NCBI GenBank assembly: GCA_000004985.1
Contig: GG738877.1
Reading direction: 5' to 3' (one strand)
From: Naegleria gruberi
Lineage: Eukaryota
Length of the DNA stretch: 64,000 bases
Positions 2,092 through 50,277 of this stretch are shown one piece after another. The position numbers were made by a program, and so were the translations under genes. Within the stretch, counting starts at the first letter, position 1, and each line of letters begins with the position of its first letter. The notes below the pieces were generated by a model. That model ran no database searches. It was not told where the DNA came from and worked only from the letters and a program-made list of their open reading frames with translations.

Positions 2092-2162
2092 TGCGTCGAC
2101 CGGGAATTGAACCCGGGTCACGGCGATGGCAACGCCGTATTCTACCACTAAACCATCGACGC
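2092..2162 (-). tRNA. tRNA-Gly(GCC): tRNA-Gly (anticodon GCC)
   Basis: The reverse complement GCGTCGATGGTTTAGTGGTAGAATACGGCGTTGCCATCGCCGTGACCCGGGTTCAATTCCCGGTCGACGC+A folds as a cloverleaf. The acceptor stem is a perfect 7 bp, the anticodon stem is CGGCG/CGCCG with loop TTGCCAT, and there is a GTTCAAT T-loop. It is close to canonical eukaryotic tRNA-Gly-GCC. Confidence 0.92.
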
Positions 2163-2360
2163 TTCTGGTTTAACAGAATGTAACCTTAATTCGTAACTAA
2201 AATAACAGAAAATTGTAAGAATAATGGTGAAAGATATTGATCCACATAGAGAATCATGAAAGAAGATTTGATGGAGCAAAACTGTAATTTTTAAAAAAGC
2301 AGATGTTAAATATTGGAGTTTGTTCTAATTCCATCCATTTTGTGTTAATACAATAAAAAA

Positions 2361-3260
2361 ATGGCAGCACAACAACAATTTTCTTATGGAGTGTGGTCCC
2401 TGATATTTTCCATGTTGGAACCTTTTGATAAGAGATCTAATGAAGAGAATTTAATAATGGAAAATATTAAGAGTTGGACTTGTTGTAGGAGCCGATCAAG
2501 ATCAATTCATGATGGTTTGAAATATGGAATAACAAGATTGGATTTGTCGGGATGTGTTTCTTTGCCGAGGAAAAAGATGGTTGCTCGTGCAATTAATCAA
2601 ATTGTGAATGCTAATTCCGTTACTAGTAATGGAGTAATGATAAAGACTTATGAGAGATGCTCATGGAATGATGAAGCCTTGATCAATAGTAGTGATTTGC
2701 TTAGGATGGAATTAGAGAGACAGGACAAGATTTGTGAATTATTGGTAAAATATTTAATTGAAAACTTTGCTTGTTTGACAGAATTGAACTTGAATGGTTT
2801 GCATCGATTAAGACAAGATCAATTGGAGAGTATTAGTTTTAATGAACTAAAAAGTCTATCAATTAGCCATTGTAGAAATGTGAAACAATTAAATCTAGAC
2901 AAATTTGGAAAATTGGAAAGGATTTCAATTCATGTATCACAAATTGAGTTGAGAATTAACTTGTTGGAGCAGATTGCAAACAAAGAGAATGAAAACTCTG
3001 AGAGAATTCCAGAGCTTGTTGTTGATGATGAAGGAGGATATGAGGTGATTATTAGAAATTGGTTGAGTCAAGCAACAATTCCCATCCATATATATATTGA
3101 TTATTCTTACAGGACAATTGATTTGGAACGAGTGTGCGAACGTTCAAGGGATGTTAGTATGATTAAACTTATATTCGCAGGAAAGGCATTGGAAAACGAA
3201 AGGTACTTGGTGGATTACAGCATTACCAAGGGCACAACCTTGCATTATGTTAAACCTTGA
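2361..3260 (+). CDS. F-box-like / LRR protein with a C-terminal ubiquitin-like half-domain
   Basis: The start is ATG at 2361. The N-terminus is F-box-like (WSLIFSMLEP...IKSWTCC). The middle has LRR-like units (LDLSGC, LTELNLNGL, LKSLSISHCRNV). The last ~30 aa, KLIFAGKALENERYLVDYSITKGTTLHYV, match the C-terminal half of ubiquitin ([28 protein letters not shown]). Confidence 0.6.
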   Translation: MAAQQQFSYGVWSLIFSMLEPFDKRSNEENLIMENIKSWTCCRSRSRSIHDGLKYGITRLDLSGCVSLPRKKMVARAINQIVNANSVTSNGVMIKTYERCSWNDEALINSSDLLRMELERQDKICELLVKYLIENFACLTELNLNGLHRLRQDQLESISFNELKSLSISHCRNVKQLNLDKFGKLERISIHVSQIELRINLLEQIANKENENSERIPELVVDDEGGYEVIIRNWLSQATIPIHIYIDYSYRTIDLERVCERSRDVSMIKLIFAGKALENERYLVDYSITKGTTLHYVKP

Positions 3261-3456
3261 ATACTTTAAATATCTTTAAAAGAATTCCAAATTAAATTTG
3301 AAATATTAAAATTATTATTAAATTCATCAAATAAAGATTTCCAAATTGAACCTTCCACACTTGATTTTATCATGACTTTTCACAGATAATATTATTAGTA
3401 TTACTAATTATAATTTAATATCATTTCTTCATTGTTATTTAATTGATTCATTCATT

Positions 3457-3672
3457 CTAATTTTCATTTGAATCTTCTACTTCTTCAGCACCTTCGGAAT
3501 TATCATCATCAAATTCCTCTTCAGAATCATCATATTCCGAAGTTAAATATTTTTCTTCCCACTTTTTGAAAAGTTCTTGATTGGTGGCTAGCAATTCCAA
3601 CATTTCTTCAATAGAGAGTGCTGGTTGGCTCATCACATATTCCTCCGTGAGTGGTTGTTTGGAATTTTGCAT
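3457..3672 (-). CDS. Small acidic protein (71 aa), function unknown
   Basis: The ORF starts at ATG 3672 with an A-rich leader and has an ordinary N-terminus followed by a D/E-rich tail. I recognise no domain. Confidence 0.4.
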   Translation of the reverse strand: MQNSKQPLTEEYVMSQPALSIEEMLELLATNQELFKKWEEKYLTSEYDDSEEEFDDDNSEGAEEVEDSNEN

Positions 3673-3888
3673 TTTTTTTTGAATTTTAAAGTTTCAATTA
3701 ATTGTTGAAGAATTTCTAATGCGGAATCTCAATAAGAAAGTTCTTCTTTAGAAACTATTTATTGTATTAATGTGTCATCATGAGTAAGATTTCGATAACT
3801 TAACATTGTAACAGTGAACTTTCTAAAAATAAAGGTCAAAAAAAATACTCAACTTAATTGTATTTGCAGAGATTGAACAGTTTACAAA

Positions 3889-4350
3889 ATGATGCAAATT
3901 TTTATTAAAACTCTCACAGGCAAGACAATTACTTTGCAAGTAGAGTCAATCAACCAAACAATAGAAAATATCAAATCCAAAGTTCAAGACAAGGAAGGAA
4001 TTTTAACAGATTACAAACTCTTCTTTGCAGGTCAACCAGTACATGATGGAATGCTAACAGATTACAATATTCAGAATGATTCAACTCTGCATTTAGTGTC
4101 AGGATTGAGAGGTGGTGTTCAAATACTTGTCAAGACATTGACTGGTAAAATTCTCACTTTGGAGGTTGAATCGAATGACACTATTGGAAATGTTAAATTA
4201 AAGATTCAAGATAAGGAAAATATTCCACCAGATCAACAACGAATTATATTTGCTGGTAAGGAATTGCAGGATGGAATCACCTTGTTGGATTCTAATGTTA
4301 TTCAAAAAGATTCCAATCTTCATTTGATTGTTAAGGCTAAAGGTGGCTAA
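3889..4350 (+). CDS. Di-ubiquitin-like protein: two divergent ubiquitin folds, each ending in Gly-Gly
   Basis: The start is ATG at 3889. Domain 1 is [19 protein letters not shown]...[35 protein letters not shown]. Domain 2 is [19 protein letters not shown]...[36 protein letters not shown] followed directly by the stop. Both are clearly ubiquitin-like (the MQIFVKTLTGK and [11 protein letters not shown] motifs) but diverged. Confidence 0.8.
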
Positions 4351-4465
4351 CAGTGTTCTAATTAAATTAATCATTGAATGAAAATGCAATTTATATCCAT
4401 GTTGCTGAAACTGGCTTTTTTTCGGTATAGTTTTTATTTAAATATCAGAAATTAAGGATTTCAAC

Positions 4466-4583
4466 GGCTACGGCCATATCACGATGAATGCACCTCATCC
4501 CGTCCGATTTGAGAAGTTAAGCATCGTAGAGCCACATCAGTACTGAGGTTGGAGACAACTTGGGAACCTGTGGTGCTGTAGTC
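4466..4583 (+). rRNA. 5S: 5S ribosomal RNA, copy 1
   Basis: GGCTACGGCCATATCACGATGAATGCACCTCATCCCGTCCGATTTGAGAAGTTAAGCATCGTAGAGCCACATCAGTACTGAGGTTGGAGACAACTTGGGAACCTGTGGTGCTGTAGTC, followed by a TTTT pol III terminator. It has the canonical 5S boxes (GGCCATA, CCCGTCCGAT, AGTTAAGC, GGTGCTGTA). Confidence 0.92.
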
Positions 4584-4699
4584 TTTTATTTCTTTTTATA
4601 TTTTTGCAGATTTTACACTTGTTTGATATCAACAATATTGGAAGCTTGTTTTTATTGGTTTTTCAATATTGATTCATTAAGTACTGCCATTTTACAAAA

Positions 4700-5232
4700 T
4701 TAGAAAGCATTAATCAACTTTTTAGCTTCAGAATCAGCAGATGGACTTTGTCTTTCATTAGCAACCTTCATAATAAGAGTCAAATTGCAATCCAAAGTGA
4801 CAACCAAATCAGTACCATTAACCTTGTAAGAATATCCAAGGAAACCAGAAGATTCCTTACTATCAGCATTGTGGACAACTCTGAAAATCAATTTTTCCAA
4901 TCCCATGAAAGCGTCCTTACAATCAGGATCCTTGATGAAAACCTTGGCAATTTCACTCATCTCAATCTTGGACTTTCAGTTAAGAATTTGATGCAATTAT
5001 TCAACAAGGTATCTTCAGCAAATCTATCACCATACTTGTATTTGGTTTCAGTTGGCAATGCAGCAAGAGAAGCCCAATCCAACAAGATGATCATCTTTGA
5101 ATTGACTTGTTGAAGATTCTTAGTAGCAGGAACAATACGATTGTTGAATAATTCACGAACCACCTTCTTGAATGCCAAACCACTTCCACACATGTTTTCA
5201 TTGAATAATTCTTCGTGAGTTTGTTGAGTCAT
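4700..5232 (-). CDS. Hypothetical ~175-aa protein encoded as two ORFs (5232..4957 and 4960..4700) in different frames; interrupted gene or pseudogene
   Basis: The upstream ORF starts at ATG 5232 (MTQQTHEELFNEN...). Its TGA stop overlaps the ATG of the downstream ORF (MSEIAKVFIKDPD...) in AGATGAGTG. Both halves have normal codon usage, so they probably form one gene. A possible 80-nt GTATGG...GAG intron would join them but the acceptor is weak. I recognise no family. Confidence 0.4.
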
Positions 5233-6695
5233 TTTGATATAAAGCTTGTTGAGGAGTTTTCAGATACAATTCAATATTGAATATTGTTTTTTTGTTTTGT
5301 CTTTATCATAAAGAATGGTCAATTTGAATTTATAGTAATTTTTACTGAGTAAGATTACAATATTTACAATGGAGTTTAATAGAGTTCAATGGTTTTCTGA
5401 GAATTGAATTGGTTTAACATTTGTGGAACAACCTTATTGAGAAGTCAGTAAGAGGAATGGTAACACCTCAGTATCATCTAACTATCGAATAGAACTCAAC
5501 AACAACAATTGGATATGGAAAAGGGAGGATATTAGTTTCCAATGTTCTCATTTAACCCTCTTGATCGTGTTGCTTAAAATAATTAGTTGGAAACTCATTG
5601 TAACTTTTGGAACTACAAAAACGAAAAAAACAACATGGACATGTTAACATGCTTTCATGCAACATGCAAGAATGCAAGTTGTGCTATCAAAGCTAATAGG
5701 AACCCAAAATATTCATTTCAAATAGGATTTTATTTCATTATAGAACAAATTACAACTATTGCTTATATGAGGATGAACAACTTGCACATTATTACAAAAC
5801 CTGAATACAGTGTTACGGAGGAATGTTATCGAAAGGGAACGATTCTGTTGAATATGACAATTTATTTGATTCGGAGGTATTCCATTAGATCAACAGAATT
5901 AAATATATTTACAGTGAATGTCTAGGTTGTACAAAATTTGGAGTTGATTGATTTATCTAAAAGATTACCATTATTTGATATTGATACATCTAATATTATA
6001 AATGGAACTAGACATTGATTATCATCTTGCAAATTTAAATGGTAAAGAAATTTCAGTGAAAAGATCTTCGAAAAATTCAATTGAAAAGAGCTAAACAACA
6101 ATCAGCCACCACTAAGAAGATTACCAAATCGAAAAAGATGTAAATTAACTTGTAACTAATTACGTAGTAAATTGTAAATGTTTTGAAATAGATGAAGTTT
6201 CAATTTAGAATTGATCAGAATATGAGAAACCAAAATTTGCATCAAACAATTCAACATGGCAAAAGTTCAATAAATACTAGGTTGATCAACCATATCTATT
6301 TCTTCAAACAAAACCTGAACCAACAAGATTCTGTCTTCGTTGCCTTCACTGTTCATACAGTCAAAGACTGTAGCGGGACAGTCGCCATATTCCTGGCAGG
6401 CTTCCTGTCGTATCTAATTAATTGAATTTCTATTGACATTGCTTCCAAGTAGCGATCTAGTAGAATTCGACTCTACATTACACAACTTAAAGGCAGTTAT
6501 AAATATGGTTACTAAAGTTCAAAGTGTTAGATCATTAAGTAATCATCTTGGATGGTTGGAAATAATGCCCCAAGTGTTAAAGTTATTGATAACAATAAGG
6601 ATGAACAAAATGGTTCTTTCATCCACCCTCGCTTCTATGTTCGAGAAAGCTCACTCATCTTAATAGATTAAATATCGTAAATTAAGGTGATGAAT

Positions 6696-6813
6696 GGCTA
6701 CGGCCATATCACGATGAATGCACCTCATCCCGTCCGATTTGAGAAGTTAAGCATCGTCGAGCCACATCAGTACTGAGGTTGGAGACAACTTGGGAACCTG
6801 TGGTGCTGTAGTC
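6696..6813 (+). rRNA. 5S: 5S ribosomal RNA, copy 2
   Basis: It is nearly identical to copy 1, with one difference (CATCGTCGAGCC versus CATCGTAGAGCC). It is followed by a TTTTT terminator. Confidence 0.92.
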
Positions 6814-6965
6814 TTTTTATTTAGCTTTTTATAAGGATAATTCATTTGCTACCTGTTCAATTTTTGATCTTTTCAAACTTTTATTCAAGTACCACAACAC
6901 CATGCATCCAAGGTAATACAGAATCGCTCCACATATACAACCTCTTATCCAATTCTCTCGAAAAC

Positions 6966-7160
6966 ATCTTTCTCGGCCAATTGGCTTTGATCGAGTGTAG
7001 TATCTGTTCTTTTCAGTTTAATAGCTGAAAGCAGCCCACGGGTTGCAATTACTATTAACTCAATTTTTTGTAGGGTCCAGAGTTGTGCTTGATTGCACAC
7101 TTTGGTTGGTTTCAATCAGACATTGCACTGTCCGTCAGAATTGGAGCTATCCCACTCTAT
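6966..7160 (+). ncRNA. U2: U2 spliceosomal snRNA
   Basis: ATCTTTCTCGGCCAATTGGCTTTGATCGAGTGTAGTATCTGTTCTTTTCAGTTTAATAGCTGAAAG aligns to the universally conserved U2 5' region (ATCGCTTCTCGGCCTTTTGGCTAAGATCAAGTGTAGTATCTGTTCTTATCAGTTTAATATCTGATA), including the branch-point-interaction sequence GTGTAGTA. An Sm site AATTTTTTG lies at about 7062, followed by a 3' stem-loop (GTTGTGCTTGATTGCACAC). The 3' end is approximate. Confidence 0.78.
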
Positions 7161-7862
7161 TGAAAAGTGAAAAATTACAAGAGTATTTATTGACTTTACA
7201 TAGTAAGACGACCATTAGTTTAATTGGACGAAAACCGTTGTCTTGTTGGAAATATTGATGAGAGCAAAGACATGTTTTTTCTCTTCCAGGAGAGAGAAAA
7301 TATATAGAATTGATATCTGGTCAAGCCAGCAATTACTTTCTTTCCGTTGTTTGTTTCGAGTAAAAGGTTGAGATACAGTAGTACTTGTTGTTGTAAGAGC
7401 ACCTTGTTGTTGATGAGATGATAGGAATAATGAAACAGAAATGAACAAAGGTTGGAACCAAAGCCTTCCTAGGAAGGTATCGATAGCGTTGCCATTTTTT
7501 ATTAAATTTAAATTAAATTAAAAACCATTTTAAATATCTAACGGTTTGCTTCTTCCCTTCATCACAATAAGAAAATGACTTGAACACAAATGTTATATTA
7601 TTCACTTTTAATACCACTGTATAGTGATACCAAACACAATAGTCTTAACGGAGAGATGACATCAACACCTCGCTGCTGAATTTTTCGATCCACTCTTGAA
7701 AATTTCCTCTTATCCGTGGAAAATCCTCTTCCATCTTTCTCTGGAAACAACAACCTATCATCAATACTATTAAACTATTATTACGTTTGACAATTAACTA
7801 AAAAACAACACATCATAATAACATATAATTATTATTATTTTACATCTAAATCTAGGAACATT

Positions 7863-38120: not shown

Positions 38121-38416
38121 TTTTTTGTTGGGATTTTGATTTGATATTTAAATGTGGCGTAACTTTCTAGTATGATTCCAAGAACATGTTCTTCTCATCC
38201 ATTTCGAGTCTAATAACGGAACAATTTGTGAAATTTACAACTACTCGGAGTTGACTACAATCTTAAATTCAATGTTCAGCAGATGATCTTTATTTTCTTT
38301 TTTCATTCACTTCTTACAGGGTTAATGGTGTTGATTCTGAAGCTAAAAAGTTGATTAATGATTTCAAATTTTTTGTAATTTAAACAAGCGTCCACCTCAA
38401 AAGCAATATTATAAAA

Positions 38417-38533
38417 GACTACAGCACCACAGGTTCCCAAGTTGTCTCCAACCTCAGTACTGATGTGGCTCGACGATGCTTAACTTCTCAAATCGGACGG
38501 GATGGGTTCATTCATCGTGATATGGCCGTAGCC
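38417..38533 (-). rRNA. 5S: 5S ribosomal RNA, copy 3 (a 2-nt-shorter sequence variant)
   Basis: It is the reverse complement of the 5S consensus, but it reads GGGATGGGTTCATTCATCG where the other copies read GGGATGAGGTGCATTCATCG. A T-run terminator follows on the gene strand. It may be a pseudogene. Confidence 0.8.
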
Positions 38534-38598
38534 ATTGATATCCTTAATTTACGATATTTAATCTATTAAGATGAGCTTTCTCGAACATAGAACGAACT

Positions 38599-39126
38599 AT
38601 GAACCAAGAAACGTTCATCACAAAATCAAAAAAAATGGGTCAAAAGCAAAGTATCTCTAAATGGACGATTGATGAACATACTTTGAGCATTGATGATGTT
38701 TGCAAAAAGTTCGATACTCAATTTAATAACTATAATCCGGATGAATCATTAGGCTTGAAGAGTCAAGTGGTTAATAAACGATCGGCACAGTTAAGTAGAA
38801 AGAGGAGAACAGTCATTGTATTTAGGGATGGTATTAAGAAAAATATTGATAGTGAAGAGTTGGTGGTGGGTGATATTGTGATGGTCAATAGTGGAGATAT
38901 TGTTCCAGCAGATTTGAGAATTTTGAGTATTAATGGTTTGAAGGTGGATAATTGCATAATAAGCGGAGAGAAGACGATATTGAATTGTACTGTTGATAAG
39001 ACACACGAAAATCCTTTCGAGACGTCCAATATTCTTTTCAAGGAGACAACCATTGTAGCTGGAAGTGGGTATGCAGTGGTCATTAAAATTGGTAGTGATA
39101 CATTAATTGAATCTTTGGCTCCATAA
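38599..39126 (+). pseudogene. Na+/K+-ATPase alpha-subunit-like (P-type IIC) gene relic: N-terminal fragment with an internal deletion and premature stop
   Basis: HTLSIDDVCKKFDTQ ... GLKSQVVNKRSAQ aligns with the Na,K-ATPase N-terminus (HKLSLDELHRKYGTD...GLT.ARAAE). RTVIVFRDGIKKNIDSEELVVGDIVMVNSGDIVPADLRILS...LKVDNCIISGEKT...NPFETSNILFKETTIVAGSGYAVVIKIGSDT aligns with the actuator domain ([36 protein letters not shown]...CKVDNSSLTGESEP...NPLETRNIAFFST). The transmembrane M1-M2 segment between them is missing. The ORF stops after 175 aa, and no phosphorylation or ATP-binding domains follow in any frame. Confidence 0.6.
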
Positions 39127-50239: not shown

Positions 50240-50277
50240 CACGAGCCATCAGCCAAAATTGTTTAATAAATTAAAAA

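What the first reader, a model, noticed from the sequence alone, without database searches (positions are those of the whole stretch)
4380..6813. Dispersed 5S rRNA genes sit inside mosaic low-copy repeats with conserved flanks
There are four 5S genes in 64 kb (4466-4583 +, 6696-6813 +, 38417-38533 -, 50278-50395 -), not in a tandem array and in both orientations. Beyond the RNA itself the flanks are shared pairwise. Copies 1 and 4 share about 60 bp upstream (AAACTGGCTT..TTTCGGTATAG.TTTTAT..TTAAATATC). Copies 2 and 3 share at least 100 bp upstream (TCTATGTTCGAGAAAGCTCA(CTCA)TCTTAATAGATTAAATATCGTAAATTAAGG, extending into a homologous pseudo-ORF start). Copy 3 also shares a downstream segment with copy 1. 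This pattern suggests the 5S genes move by segmental duplication, recombination or gene conversion and carry neighbouring DNA with them. A second consequence is that ORF 6433-6663 is probably a repeat flank and not a gene.
Basis: seen in the sequence. Interest (0 to 1): 0.55.

Follow-up and report, generated by a model that had tools for sequence, protein, structure and literature searches.

The report
Dispersed Naegleria 5S genes, recombinant flanks
Four copies of the amoeba Naegleria gruberi's roughly 270-copy scattered 5S ribosomal RNA gene family share only short flanks, and the patchwork pattern of those flanks shows the copies have recombined with each other and probably carried a small multi-copy gene along; this is an ordinary kind of gene family with one moderately interesting twist.

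Summary
The window is Naegleria gruberi scaffold_33, about 32-96 kb. The four 5S genes are real and are already listed in a published table of 279 putative copies. Genome-wide they are dispersed, not tandem (minimum spacing 1.1 kb), with an excess of close pairs.

All four copies share a 28-bp upstream block with a TATA-like core at -28..-20. Only c1/c4 and c2/c3 share more, to about -63. c1 and c3 do share downstream sequence: the spacer and last codons of a lineage-specific multi-copy gene, frameshifted at c1 and a relic at c3. The same junction occurs on an environmental Naegleria contig.

Informative sites switch grouping between -19 and -9, from (c1,c4|c2,c3) to (c1,c3|c2,c4). That requires recombination or gene conversion between copies.

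c1 and c2 are direct repeats bracketing the family gene. They look like reciprocal products of a c4-like by c3-like exchange, resembling the 5S-rDNA-flanked wtf units of fission yeasts. This step is inferred, not shown.

ORF 6433-6663 is probably not a gene, but not because it is a repeat flank.

This is a new member of a known kind, of modest interest.

The parts
4466..4584 (+). 5S rRNA gene c1 (private C>A at position 63)
   Evidence: Rfam RF00001, 106.5 bits; canonical three-helix fold; equals scaffold_33:36469 in PMC3369914 Table S1
6696..6814 (+). 5S rRNA gene c2 (consensus sequence; identical to the 5S on environmental contig L019)
   Evidence: Rfam 105.4 bits; 100% identical to L019 over 125 nt
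38416..38533 (-). 5S rRNA gene c3 (118 nt; 1-nt deletion plus substitutions in helix III; possibly impaired)
   Evidence: Rfam 90.7 bits; helix III pairing lost in the MFE fold, -37.7 versus -41.5 kcal/mol; variant positions listed
50277..50395 (-). 5S rRNA gene c4 (G>T at position 25)
   Evidence: Rfam 103.3 bits
4438..4465 (+). Proximal upstream block of c1 (TTAAATATC..AAATTAAGG plus 8 bp). TATA-like core at -28..-20. The same block lies at 6668-6695 (+), 38534-38561 (-) and 50396-50423 (-).
   Evidence: The 20-nt motif occurs exactly 4 times in the window, only before the 5S genes. All pairwise z-scores are 5.6-13.
4408..4437 (+). Distal flank family A at c1 (AAACTGGCTTTTTTTCGGTATAGTTTTTAT). 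The c4 counterpart is at 50456-50485 (-).
   Evidence: 27/30 identical, z=6.9; unrelated to the c2/c3 flank
50424..50455 (-). 32-35-bp tandem duplication of the proximal block, inserted between the family A flank and the functional-looking proximal block of c4
   Evidence: Direct repeats ACCTTAATAT (spacing 35) and ATAAAAG[G/C]TATAC (spacing 32); alignment
6633..6667 (+). Distal flank family B at c2 (TTCTATGTTCGAGAAAGCTCA[CTCA]TCTTAATAGA). The c3 counterpart is at 38562-38592 (-).
   Evidence: Self-BLAST 6633-6829 versus 38592-38399, 93% over 199 bp; z=11.2; sharp edge at -63
4700..5232 (-). Member of a Naegleria-specific multi-copy gene family (about 178 aa, no known domain). Here it is disrupted by a frameshift, a 4-nt deletion relative to paralogs. 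It converges on c1 and lies between the direct repeats c1 and c2.
   Evidence: 8 homologs, 6 of them N. gruberi predicted proteins on contigs of six different lengths, i.e. at least six different contigs. P0003 is the gene model of this locus, with an artificial intron over the frameshift. No Pfam or PDB match.
4585..4699 (.). Spacer between the c1 3' end and the family gene's stop codon. It is homologous to the spacers at c3 and on L001.
   Evidence: Three-way alignment
38311..38415 (+). Relic of the family gene's 3' end (last ~13 codons, stop codon mutated, plus a ~20-nt block from the YKVNG region with the intervening ~76 nt deleted), followed by the homologous spacer. It converges on c3 exactly as the intact gene converges on c1.
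   Evidence: 44 nt at 93%, z=14; tblastn DSEAKKLINDF; alignments
6964..7154 (+). U2 snRNA gene, 150 bp downstream of c2. It is context only, inferred to be the resident downstream neighbour.
   Evidence: Rfam RF00004, 123.6 bits

Best explanation
These are four members of the dispersed, roughly 270-copy 5S rRNA gene family of Naegleria gruberi.

Each copy is a self-contained RNA polymerase III unit. It has an upstream 28-bp block with a TATA-like core at -28..-20, which presumably positions TBP/TFIIIB. It also has the internal control region within the gene and a T-run terminator.

Sequence shared between copies stops sharply at about -63 upstream and about 10-25 bp downstream of the gene, and everything beyond is unique. 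The short shared flanks are not all promoter. They record how copies were made and later recombined at the DNA level.

Shown:
- The distal flanks fall into two families: A in c1/c4 and B in c2/c3.
- From -8 through the gene, terminator and downstream spacer the grouping switches to c1/c3 versus c2/c4.
- At least one crossover or conversion between copies therefore occurred within the shared block, between -19 and -9.
- The junction '5S 3' end - spacer - 3' end of a multi-copy family gene' is inherited. It is present at c1, as a relic at c3, and on an independent environmental Naegleria contig.

Inferred:
- c1 and c2 are direct repeats 2,230 bp apart bracketing the family gene. They are the two reciprocal products of an exchange between a resident c4-like locus (flank A, no gene) and a c3-like unit (flank B + 5S + spacer + gene).
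- That exchange would be either integration of a circular unit or unequal or ectopic crossover.
- This is the mechanism proposed for the spread of wtf genes to pre-existing dispersed 5S rDNA in fission yeasts.
For: - Identity of genes and organism: Rfam; homologs named N. gruberi; the offsets of the four copies match scaffold_33 entries in Table S1 of PMC3369914 to within a few bp.
- Dispersed family: 264 near-full copies on 113 scaffolds, minimum spacing 1,104 bp, median gap 33 kb. There are 29 gaps of 1-5 kb, which by my own rough arithmetic from a mean spacing of about 155 kb is several-fold more than the 5-8 expected at random.
- Promoter-like block: the motif occurs only before the four 5S genes. 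A TATA box and ICR are reported for N. gruberi 5S genes (PMC3369914).
- Flank extents and significance.
- Partition switch: sites -31, -30, -29 and -19 support (c1,c4|c2,c3). Sites -8, -7 and -4, the T-run length and the downstream homology support (c1,c3|c2,c4).
- Inherited junction. L001 ends in the antisense 3' end of a 5S about 90 nt after the paralog's stop codon, and the spacer motif is shared.
- The multi-copy family is mostly degenerate, with truncated or deleted gene models.
- Precedent and mechanism: PMC9562144.
- 5S pair spacings genome-wide peak at 2.15-2.5 kb: 10 of 29 close pairs, scan-statistic P about 0.009.
Against: - Only four sequences define the partitions. The (c1,c3|c2,c4) signal upstream rests on 3 sites plus the T-run length, and which copies are parental cannot be polarised.
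- The other N. gruberi paralog loci could not be inspected.
- A rough mapping was made from contig lengths, assuming scaffolds are numbered by size. It is unreliable, and one table entry (scaffold_50) already contradicts the assumption. It suggests the paralogs may not lie on the scaffolds that hold the ~2.3-kb 5S pairs. The spacing peak may therefore have another cause.
- The most divergent paralog, on L002, has no 5S within 324 bp of its stop codon.
- 5S loci from close relatives with the same RNA sequence (L009, L020) lack the 28-bp block. Its role as a promoter is therefore not established by comparison.
- No evidence bears on whether the family gene is expressed or functional.
Confidence: 0.6

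Rival explanations
1. Promoter conservation only. All shared flank sequence is maintained by selection for Pol III transcription, in two promoter variants, and says nothing about movement or recombination of copies.
For: All four copies share the 28-bp block with a TATA-like core at the position typical for Pol III upstream TATA elements. A TATA box is reported for N. gruberi 5S genes.
Against: - The -29..-63 regions are near-identical within pairs and unrelated between pairs.
- 5S genes with the same RNA sequence in relatives (L009, L020) lack the block, and three identical sister-species genes (L021-L023) share no upstream sequence at all.
- The shared downstream segment is coding sequence of a neighbouring gene.
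- c4 tolerates a 32-35-bp insertion between the distal and proximal parts.
Confidence: 0.12
2. Simple tree-like local segmental duplication followed by decay, with no exchange between copies. c1/c4 and c2/c3 are sister duplicates, and the other resemblances are chance or parallel mutation.
For: The four copies lie within 46 kb. Close 5S pairs are over-represented genome-wide. The shared segments have sharp edges, as duplication breakpoints would.
Against: - The partitions are incompatible on the two sides of -19/-9.
- c3 shares its upstream flank with c2 but its downstream spacer and gene relic with c1. That cannot fit one tree without recombination.
Confidence: 0.15
3. RNA-mediated dispersal: 5S-derived retroposed copies or a 5S-related SINE.
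For: 5S-derived SINEs exist in other eukaryotes (established knowledge). The units here are short.
Against: Non-transcribed upstream sequence is shared. There is no A-tail, and no target-site duplications or terminal repeats surround the units or the c1-c2 module. Three of the four genes fold canonically; c3 has lost helix III pairing.
Confidence: 0.03

Closest known systems
Dispersed 5S rRNA gene families of Neurospora crassa, Schizosaccharomyces pombe and Yarrowia lipolytica
   Same: - Many single 5S genes are scattered among protein-coding genes, not in tandem arrays and not in the rDNA unit.
- The RNA-coding part is homogeneous while the flanks are largely unique.
- There is an upstream TATA-like element about 25-30 bp before the gene.
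- Basis: Yarrowia from PMC2566860 (seen). The Neurospora and S. pombe features are from my own knowledge of the classical literature and were not checked here.
   Different: - Here about 270 copies sit in a 41-Mb amoeboflagellate genome.
- A 28-bp block, much longer than a TATA box, is shared by neighbouring copies, with pairwise extensions to -63.
- No tRNA-5S fusion of the Yarrowia type is present.
[quoted passage not shown]
   Same: - A lineage-specific multi-copy gene family with many pseudogenes lies immediately next to dispersed 5S genes.
- Here one member is bracketed by direct-repeat 5S genes.
- Intergenic spacers within the unit are conserved between copies.
- The proposed spread is ectopic gene conversion or circle integration at pre-existing 5S genes.
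   Different: - The Naegleria protein has no detectable similarity to anything known, and nothing indicates meiotic drive.
- Only three junctions could be inspected here, against 72 of 83 genes in S. octosporus.
- The inferred exchange point lies in the upstream block (-19..-9), not demonstrably within the 5S gene.
- No syntenic empty sites could be examined.
N. gruberi 5S gene catalogue (PMC3369914, Table S1 and Figure 2)
   Same: The same four genes are listed at scaffold_33:36469, 38699, 70414 and 82276. A TATA box and an internal control region are reported.
   Different: - That paper scores the genes as tandemly arranged, but its own coordinates show no spacing below 1.1 kb.
- In the passages of its main text and Table S1 that I read, it does not describe flank families, recombination between copies, or the associated gene family.

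Membership tests
5S rRNA (Rfam RF00001) | Covariance-model score above the curated gathering score over the full model | tested here: met
   90.7-106.5 bits against 38, model positions 1-120, all four copies
5S rRNA (Rfam RF00001) | Three-helix-junction secondary structure | tested here: met
   The MFE folds of c1, c2 and c4 give the canonical shape. c3 loses helix III pairing because of a 1-nt deletion.
5S rRNA (Rfam RF00001) | Pol III terminator (T-run) immediately after the gene | tested here: met
   TTT(T)A follows GTAGTCT in all four copies
Dispersed (non-tandem, rDNA-unlinked) 5S gene family | Copies not head-to-tail, separated by unrelated genes | tested here: met
   In-window spacings are 2.2, 31.7 and 11.9 kb, with protein-coding ORFs between copies. 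Genome-wide minimum spacing is 1,104 bp over 264 copies on 113 scaffolds.
Dispersed (non-tandem, rDNA-unlinked) 5S gene family | Not part of the 18S-5.8S-28S unit | tested here: met
   No SSU, LSU or 5.8S rRNA match anywhere in the 64-kb window. The genome-wide statement comes from PMC3369914.
Dispersed (non-tandem, rDNA-unlinked) 5S gene family | Homogeneity confined to the gene and a short promoter and terminator region, with unique flanks beyond | tested here: met
   Shared sequence ends at -28 (all copies) or -63 (pairs) and at +8 to +27. The far flanks are at shuffle background.
5S-rDNA-flanked duplicating gene units (wtf-5S rDNA type) | The cargo is a multi-copy gene family | tested here: met
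   Six N. gruberi paralogs on contigs of six different lengths, plus two environmental ones
5S-rDNA-flanked duplicating gene units (wtf-5S rDNA type) | The cargo is bracketed by, or adjacent to, 5S genes, with the intergenic spacer conserved between units | tested here: met
   c1(+)-gene-c2(+) in the window. The spacer is homologous at c1, c3 and L001.
5S-rDNA-flanked duplicating gene units (wtf-5S rDNA type) | Most family members genome-wide are 5S-associated | tested here: inconclusive
   Three of the four junctions that could be read have a 5S (c1, the c3 relic and L001); L002 has none within 324 bp. The N. gruberi paralog loci were not retrievable.
5S-rDNA-flanked duplicating gene units (wtf-5S rDNA type) | Syntenic sites in relatives carry a single 5S and no cargo | not testable with these tools
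   No other Naegleria genome assembly is reachable, and no metagenome locus is syntenic with the window's flanking genes.
5S-rDNA-flanked duplicating gene units (wtf-5S rDNA type) | The cargo encodes a selfish poison-antidote driver | not tested
   No Pfam or PDB similarity. The AlphaFold model is unusable (pLDDT 37). No direct comparison with Wtf proteins was made.
Transposable element (SINE, TIR or LTR element) | Terminal repeats or target-site duplications at the unit boundaries | tested here: not met
   The only significant repeat in 4300-7300 is the 5S unit itself. The inverted repeats found are short, 75-88% matches typical of AT-rich DNA.

The most novel reading that the evidence does not exclude
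A Naegleria-specific, mostly pseudogenised gene family of unknown function propagates through the genome as a 5S-rDNA-bracketed unit. It would spread by ectopic recombination at the about 270 dispersed 5S genes. That would be an independent, non-fungal parallel to the wtf-5S rDNA system, and it raises the possibility that the cargo is a selfish element in an organism whose sexual cycle has never been observed directly.
Probability: 0.2. Interest if true: 0.65.

Novelty: new member of a known kind. Interest (0 to 1): 0.36.

Why it matters
- Dispersed 5S genes are a classic test case for how scattered repeats stay uniform. Here the flanks preserve a readable record of an exchange between copies, with a breakpoint localised to about 10 bp.
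- If the 5S genes also serve as landing pads for a duplicating gene family, that would extend a mechanism so far documented in fission yeasts (the wtf genes, PMC9562144) to a distant eukaryotic lineage.
- It would also make about 270 Pol III genes candidate hotspots of genome rearrangement in Naegleria.
- For annotation: the mechanical ORFs around these genes (6192-6425, 6433-6663, 4560-4703, 38303-38440) should not be called as genes. The published gene model P0003 hides a frameshift behind an artificial intron.

Tried and rejected
- **Paralog loci.** Retrieving the N. gruberi paralog loci by exact protein look-up failed; none is on record.
- **Collection scans for 5S.**
  - The first metagenome scan, with a 5' 5S pattern, found nothing.
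  - The second gave 16 loci, of which only L009 is Naegleria-type.
  - Genome and viral collections hold no match.
- **Peptide trick.** I searched the protein database with peptides translated from the 5S gene, to catch spurious ORF calls. This yielded five more 5S loci. L019 lacks upstream sequence, and L021-L023 belong to a sister species.
- **L020 flank.** By eye L020 seemed to carry a degenerate family A flank, but the shuffle test gives z about 0. Rejected.
- **TTCG motif.** A 'TTCG..A.AG' motif common to flanks A and B lies at different distances from the gene (-45, -56, -52, -78) and was treated as chance.
- **c4/c2 'far' similarity.** This hit (z=4.8) is a gap-rich alignment of about 70% identity in AT-rich DNA. 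It is not considered meaningful.
- **Splice acceptor at c3.** The 'ttcttacag' before the c3 relic looked like a splice acceptor. It is the homolog of the coding 'tcttacaag' (SYK) of the intact gene, so the relic is not an exon.
- **Structure of the family protein.** The prediction failed (pLDDT 37), so no fold search was run.
- **Transposon-like termini.** A search around the module found nothing.
- **Scaffold mapping.** Mapping paralog contig lengths to scaffold numbers was abandoned as unreliable.
Full report
**What is there**

An Rfam scan of the window finds four full-length 5S rRNA genes:
- c1 at 4466-4584 (+)
- c2 at 6696-6814 (+)
- c3 at 38416-38533 (-)
- c4 at 50277-50395 (-)

It also finds a U2 snRNA at 6964-7154 (+) and three tRNA genes. 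The sequence is about 33% G+C and densely packed with long ORFs.

The gene downstream of c1 has its best homologs among 'predicted proteins' of Naegleria gruberi. The relative positions of the four 5S genes (0, 2230, 33950 and 45811 bp) match the scaffold_33 entries 36469, 38699, 70414 and 82276 in Table S1 of PMC3369914 to within a few bp. The window is therefore N. gruberi scaffold_33, about 32-96 kb, and the four genes are already catalogued.

**Genome-wide setting**

I transcribed that table and analysed it:
- 264 near-full-length copies lie on 113 scaffolds.
- The smallest spacing is 1,104 bp, so there are no tandem arrays, although the paper's summary table says 'tandem'.
- The median within-scaffold gap is 33 kb.
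- 29 gaps fall between 1 and 5 kb. By my rough arithmetic, random placement at a mean spacing of about 155 kb would give only 5-8.
- Four copies in 64 kb is the maximum density seen.
- Ten of the 29 close pairs are spaced 2.15-2.5 kb, like c1-c2. The scan-statistic P is about 0.009, and this is a post hoc observation.

**Extent of shared flanks**

The evidence comes from self-BLAST, all-against-all flank BLAST, and local-alignment scores against shuffles.
- All six pairs share the 28 bp immediately upstream: TTAAATATC-N2-A-N-ATTAAGG plus 8 bp (z=5.6-13). This 20-nt motif occurs only at these four places in the window.
- Beyond -35, only c1/c4 match (AAACTGGCTT..TTTCGGTATAG.TTTTAT, 27/30, z=6.9) and c2/c3 match (TTCTATGTTCGAGAAAGCTCA[CTCA]TCTTAATAGA, identical but for a 4-bp indel, z=11.2). 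The A and B flanks are unrelated to each other.
- In c4 the A flank is displaced by a 32-35-bp tandem duplication of the proximal block.
- Beyond -64, c2/c3 are at background, and there is no protein-level similarity either.
- Downstream, similarity ends with the T-run, except for c1/c3.

**The c1/c3 downstream segment**

Window 4696-4739 matches 38372-38329 at 93% (z=14). At c1 this is the last 13 codons and the stop codon of a gene on the minus strand (4700-5232) that converges on the 5S gene.

That gene belongs to a small family with no Pfam or PDB relatives:
- Six N. gruberi members lie on contigs of six different lengths, and two more are on environmental contigs.
- Most gene models are truncated or carry internal deletions.
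- The window copy has a 4-nt deletion that causes a frameshift. The published model P0003 hides this behind an artificial intron.

At c3 only a relic remains. It comprises the last codons with a mutated stop, plus a ~20-nt block from further upstream in the gene, with the ~76 nt between them deleted.

The spacer between the stop codon and the 5S 3' end is homologous at three places: c1, c3 and L001. L001 is an environmental contig with 84% nucleotide identity to the c1 gene. It ends in the antisense 3' end of a 5S gene about 90 nt after the stop codon. The junction is therefore inherited, not assembled three times. A more divergent paralog on L002 has no 5S within 324 bp.

**Promoter or history?**

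The common 28-bp block has a TATA-like core at -28..-20. That is the usual place for TBP/TFIIIB on Pol III genes with upstream elements, and a TATA box plus an internal control region have been reported for N. gruberi 5S genes.

Comparison with other loci does not support a purely functional reading:
- To obtain independent loci I scanned metagenomes. I also searched the protein database with peptides translated from the 5S gene, to catch spurious ORF calls.
- L009 and L020 carry the same 5S RNA (1-2 differences) but no significant match to the block.
- Three loci from a sister species (L021-L023) have identical 5S genes and no shared upstream sequence at all.

The block may contain the promoter. 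Its near-identity among the four window copies, and especially the pairwise extensions, are better explained by common descent.

**Direct evidence for exchange between copies**

- Sites -31, -30, -29 and -19, and every distal site, group (c1,c4 | c2,c3).
- Sites -8, -7 and -4 (TGATGAAT in c2 and c4; ATTTCAAC or ATATCAAT in c1 and c3), the T-run length after the gene (TTT versus TTTT), and the downstream spacer and gene all group (c1,c3 | c2,c4).

These partitions are incompatible. At least one crossover or conversion must have occurred between -19 and -9, inside the AAATTAAGG stretch present in c1-c3 (c4 differs at one base).

**Most likely mechanism (inferred)**

c1 and c2 are direct repeats 2,230 bp apart that bracket the family gene.
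- c1 combines flank A with the c3-type proximal end, spacer and gene.
- c2 combines flank B with the c4-type proximal end and a different downstream neighbour (U2).

That is the reciprocal pair expected if a c3-like unit (flank B + 5S + spacer + gene) recombined with a resident c4-like locus (flank A + 5S). The exchange could have been integration of a circular unit or an unequal or ectopic crossover. [quoted passage not shown] No transposon-like terminal repeats or target-site duplications are present.

Limits of the inference:
- Four sequences cannot polarise which copies are parental.
- The other N. gruberi paralog loci could not be inspected.
- A crude mapping of contig lengths to scaffold numbers does not obviously place the paralogs at the ~2.3-kb 5S pairs.

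I put about 0.85 on 'dispersed family with inter-copy recombination', and about 0.4 on the specific module-integration model.

**The ORF claim**

ORF 6433-6663 overlaps the c2/c3 shared flank by only 31 bp and is otherwise unique. It starts at TTG, has no Pfam match, and has a single marginal 27-residue hit among 1.84 billion proteins. It is probably not a gene, but it is not a repeat flank either.

**Verdict**

The family is high-copy and already catalogued. The arrangement is a new example of a known kind: a dispersed 5S family with concerted or recombining copies. It has a possible, untested parallel to 5S-rDNA-associated gene-family expansion.

Noticed in passing
window 6360-6409 (+); L020 1089-1138: A 50-nt, GC-richer block (GTCAAAGACTGTAGCGGGACAGTCGCCATATTCCTGGCAGGCTTCCTGTC) is 49/50 identical to a block on L020, an environmental Naegleria contig that is a cluster of tRNA and 5S genes. 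Both edges are sharp. It has no meaningful Rfam match (only two weak chance-level hits at E<=10), forms a modest hairpin on the + strand (z=-2.3), and is absent from the bacterial/archaeal and viral collections. It may be an unannotated small RNA or a regulatory element. It overlaps mechanical ORF 6192-6425.
   Followed up: partly
window 2092-7154: tRNA-Gly (2092-2162, -), 5S c1, 5S c2 and a U2 snRNA (6964-7154, only 150 bp after c2) form a 5-kb cluster of small-RNA genes. L020 shows a similar tRNA/5S cluster in a related organism.
   Followed up: no
window 50424-50455 (-): c4 carries a 32-35-bp tandem duplication of its proximal upstream block. This gives a second, degenerate TATA-like/ATTAAGG copy and pushes the distal A flank about 33 bp further from the gene.
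   Followed up: yes
window 38416-38533 (-): c3 has a 1-nt deletion and substitutions at gene positions 26-30 that abolish helix III pairing in the predicted fold (-37.7 versus -41.5 kcal/mol; Rfam 90.7 versus ~105 bits). It may be a decaying copy, in keeping with the gene relics on both of its sides.
   Followed up: partly
window 38599-39126 (+): An ORF starting 66 bp upstream of c3 encodes only the first ~175 residues of a P-type (E1-E2) ATPase and then stops. The next ORF is unrelated. It looks like a truncated gene fragment next to the 5S gene.
   Followed up: no
window 4957-4962 region of gene 4700-5232 (-): The family gene has a 4-nt deletion relative to its paralogs (…SPRLSNMSEIAK… becomes out of frame). 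The public gene model P0003 bridges it with an artificial GT..AG intron. Paralog models P0002, P0006, P0007 and P0008 also look truncated or internally deleted, so most of the family may be pseudogenes.
   Followed up: partly
window 2163-2222 (upstream of tRNA-Gly, - strand); L020 ~1196-1255: The upstream regions of the window's tRNA-Gly and of a tRNA on L020 share ATTAAGG(T/G)TACATT at about -28..-14. The ATTAAGG heptamer also occurs at -15..-9 of the 5S genes. It could be a recurring Pol III upstream motif or a coincidence.
   Followed up: no
window 2361-3260 and 3889-4350 (+): Two neighbouring genes upstream of c1 encode divergent ubiquitin-family domains: a 153-aa di-ubiquitin-like protein ending in GG, and a 299-aa protein with a C-terminal partial ubiquitin domain.
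   Followed up: no
PMC3369914 Table 1 versus Table S1: The paper scores N. gruberi 5S genes as 'tandem arrangement: yes', but its own coordinate table shows no two copies closer than 1.1 kb and copies on 113 scaffolds. One entry (scaffold_50 at 496 kb) also looks inconsistent with size-ordered scaffold numbering.
   Followed up: yes
L005-L008, L010-L012, L014, L016, L017 (VFQM/VFQO metagenome contigs): A different, unidentified eukaryote shares the 19-nt 5S core with Naegleria. It also has single dispersed 5S genes (GGGTACGGTCAT…) with unrelated flanks apart from a short pyrimidine-rich tract, tttcttc in about four of the loci, just before the gene.
   Followed up: no
L009 ~460-500 and L019 ~2370-2405 (downstream of their 5S genes): There is weak but above-shuffle similarity (z=4.4) about 40-70 nt downstream of the 5S genes on two unrelated environmental contigs (…tccaa(a)gtgtcatt…). 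It could be the start of a homologous convergent or divergent gene.
   Followed up: no
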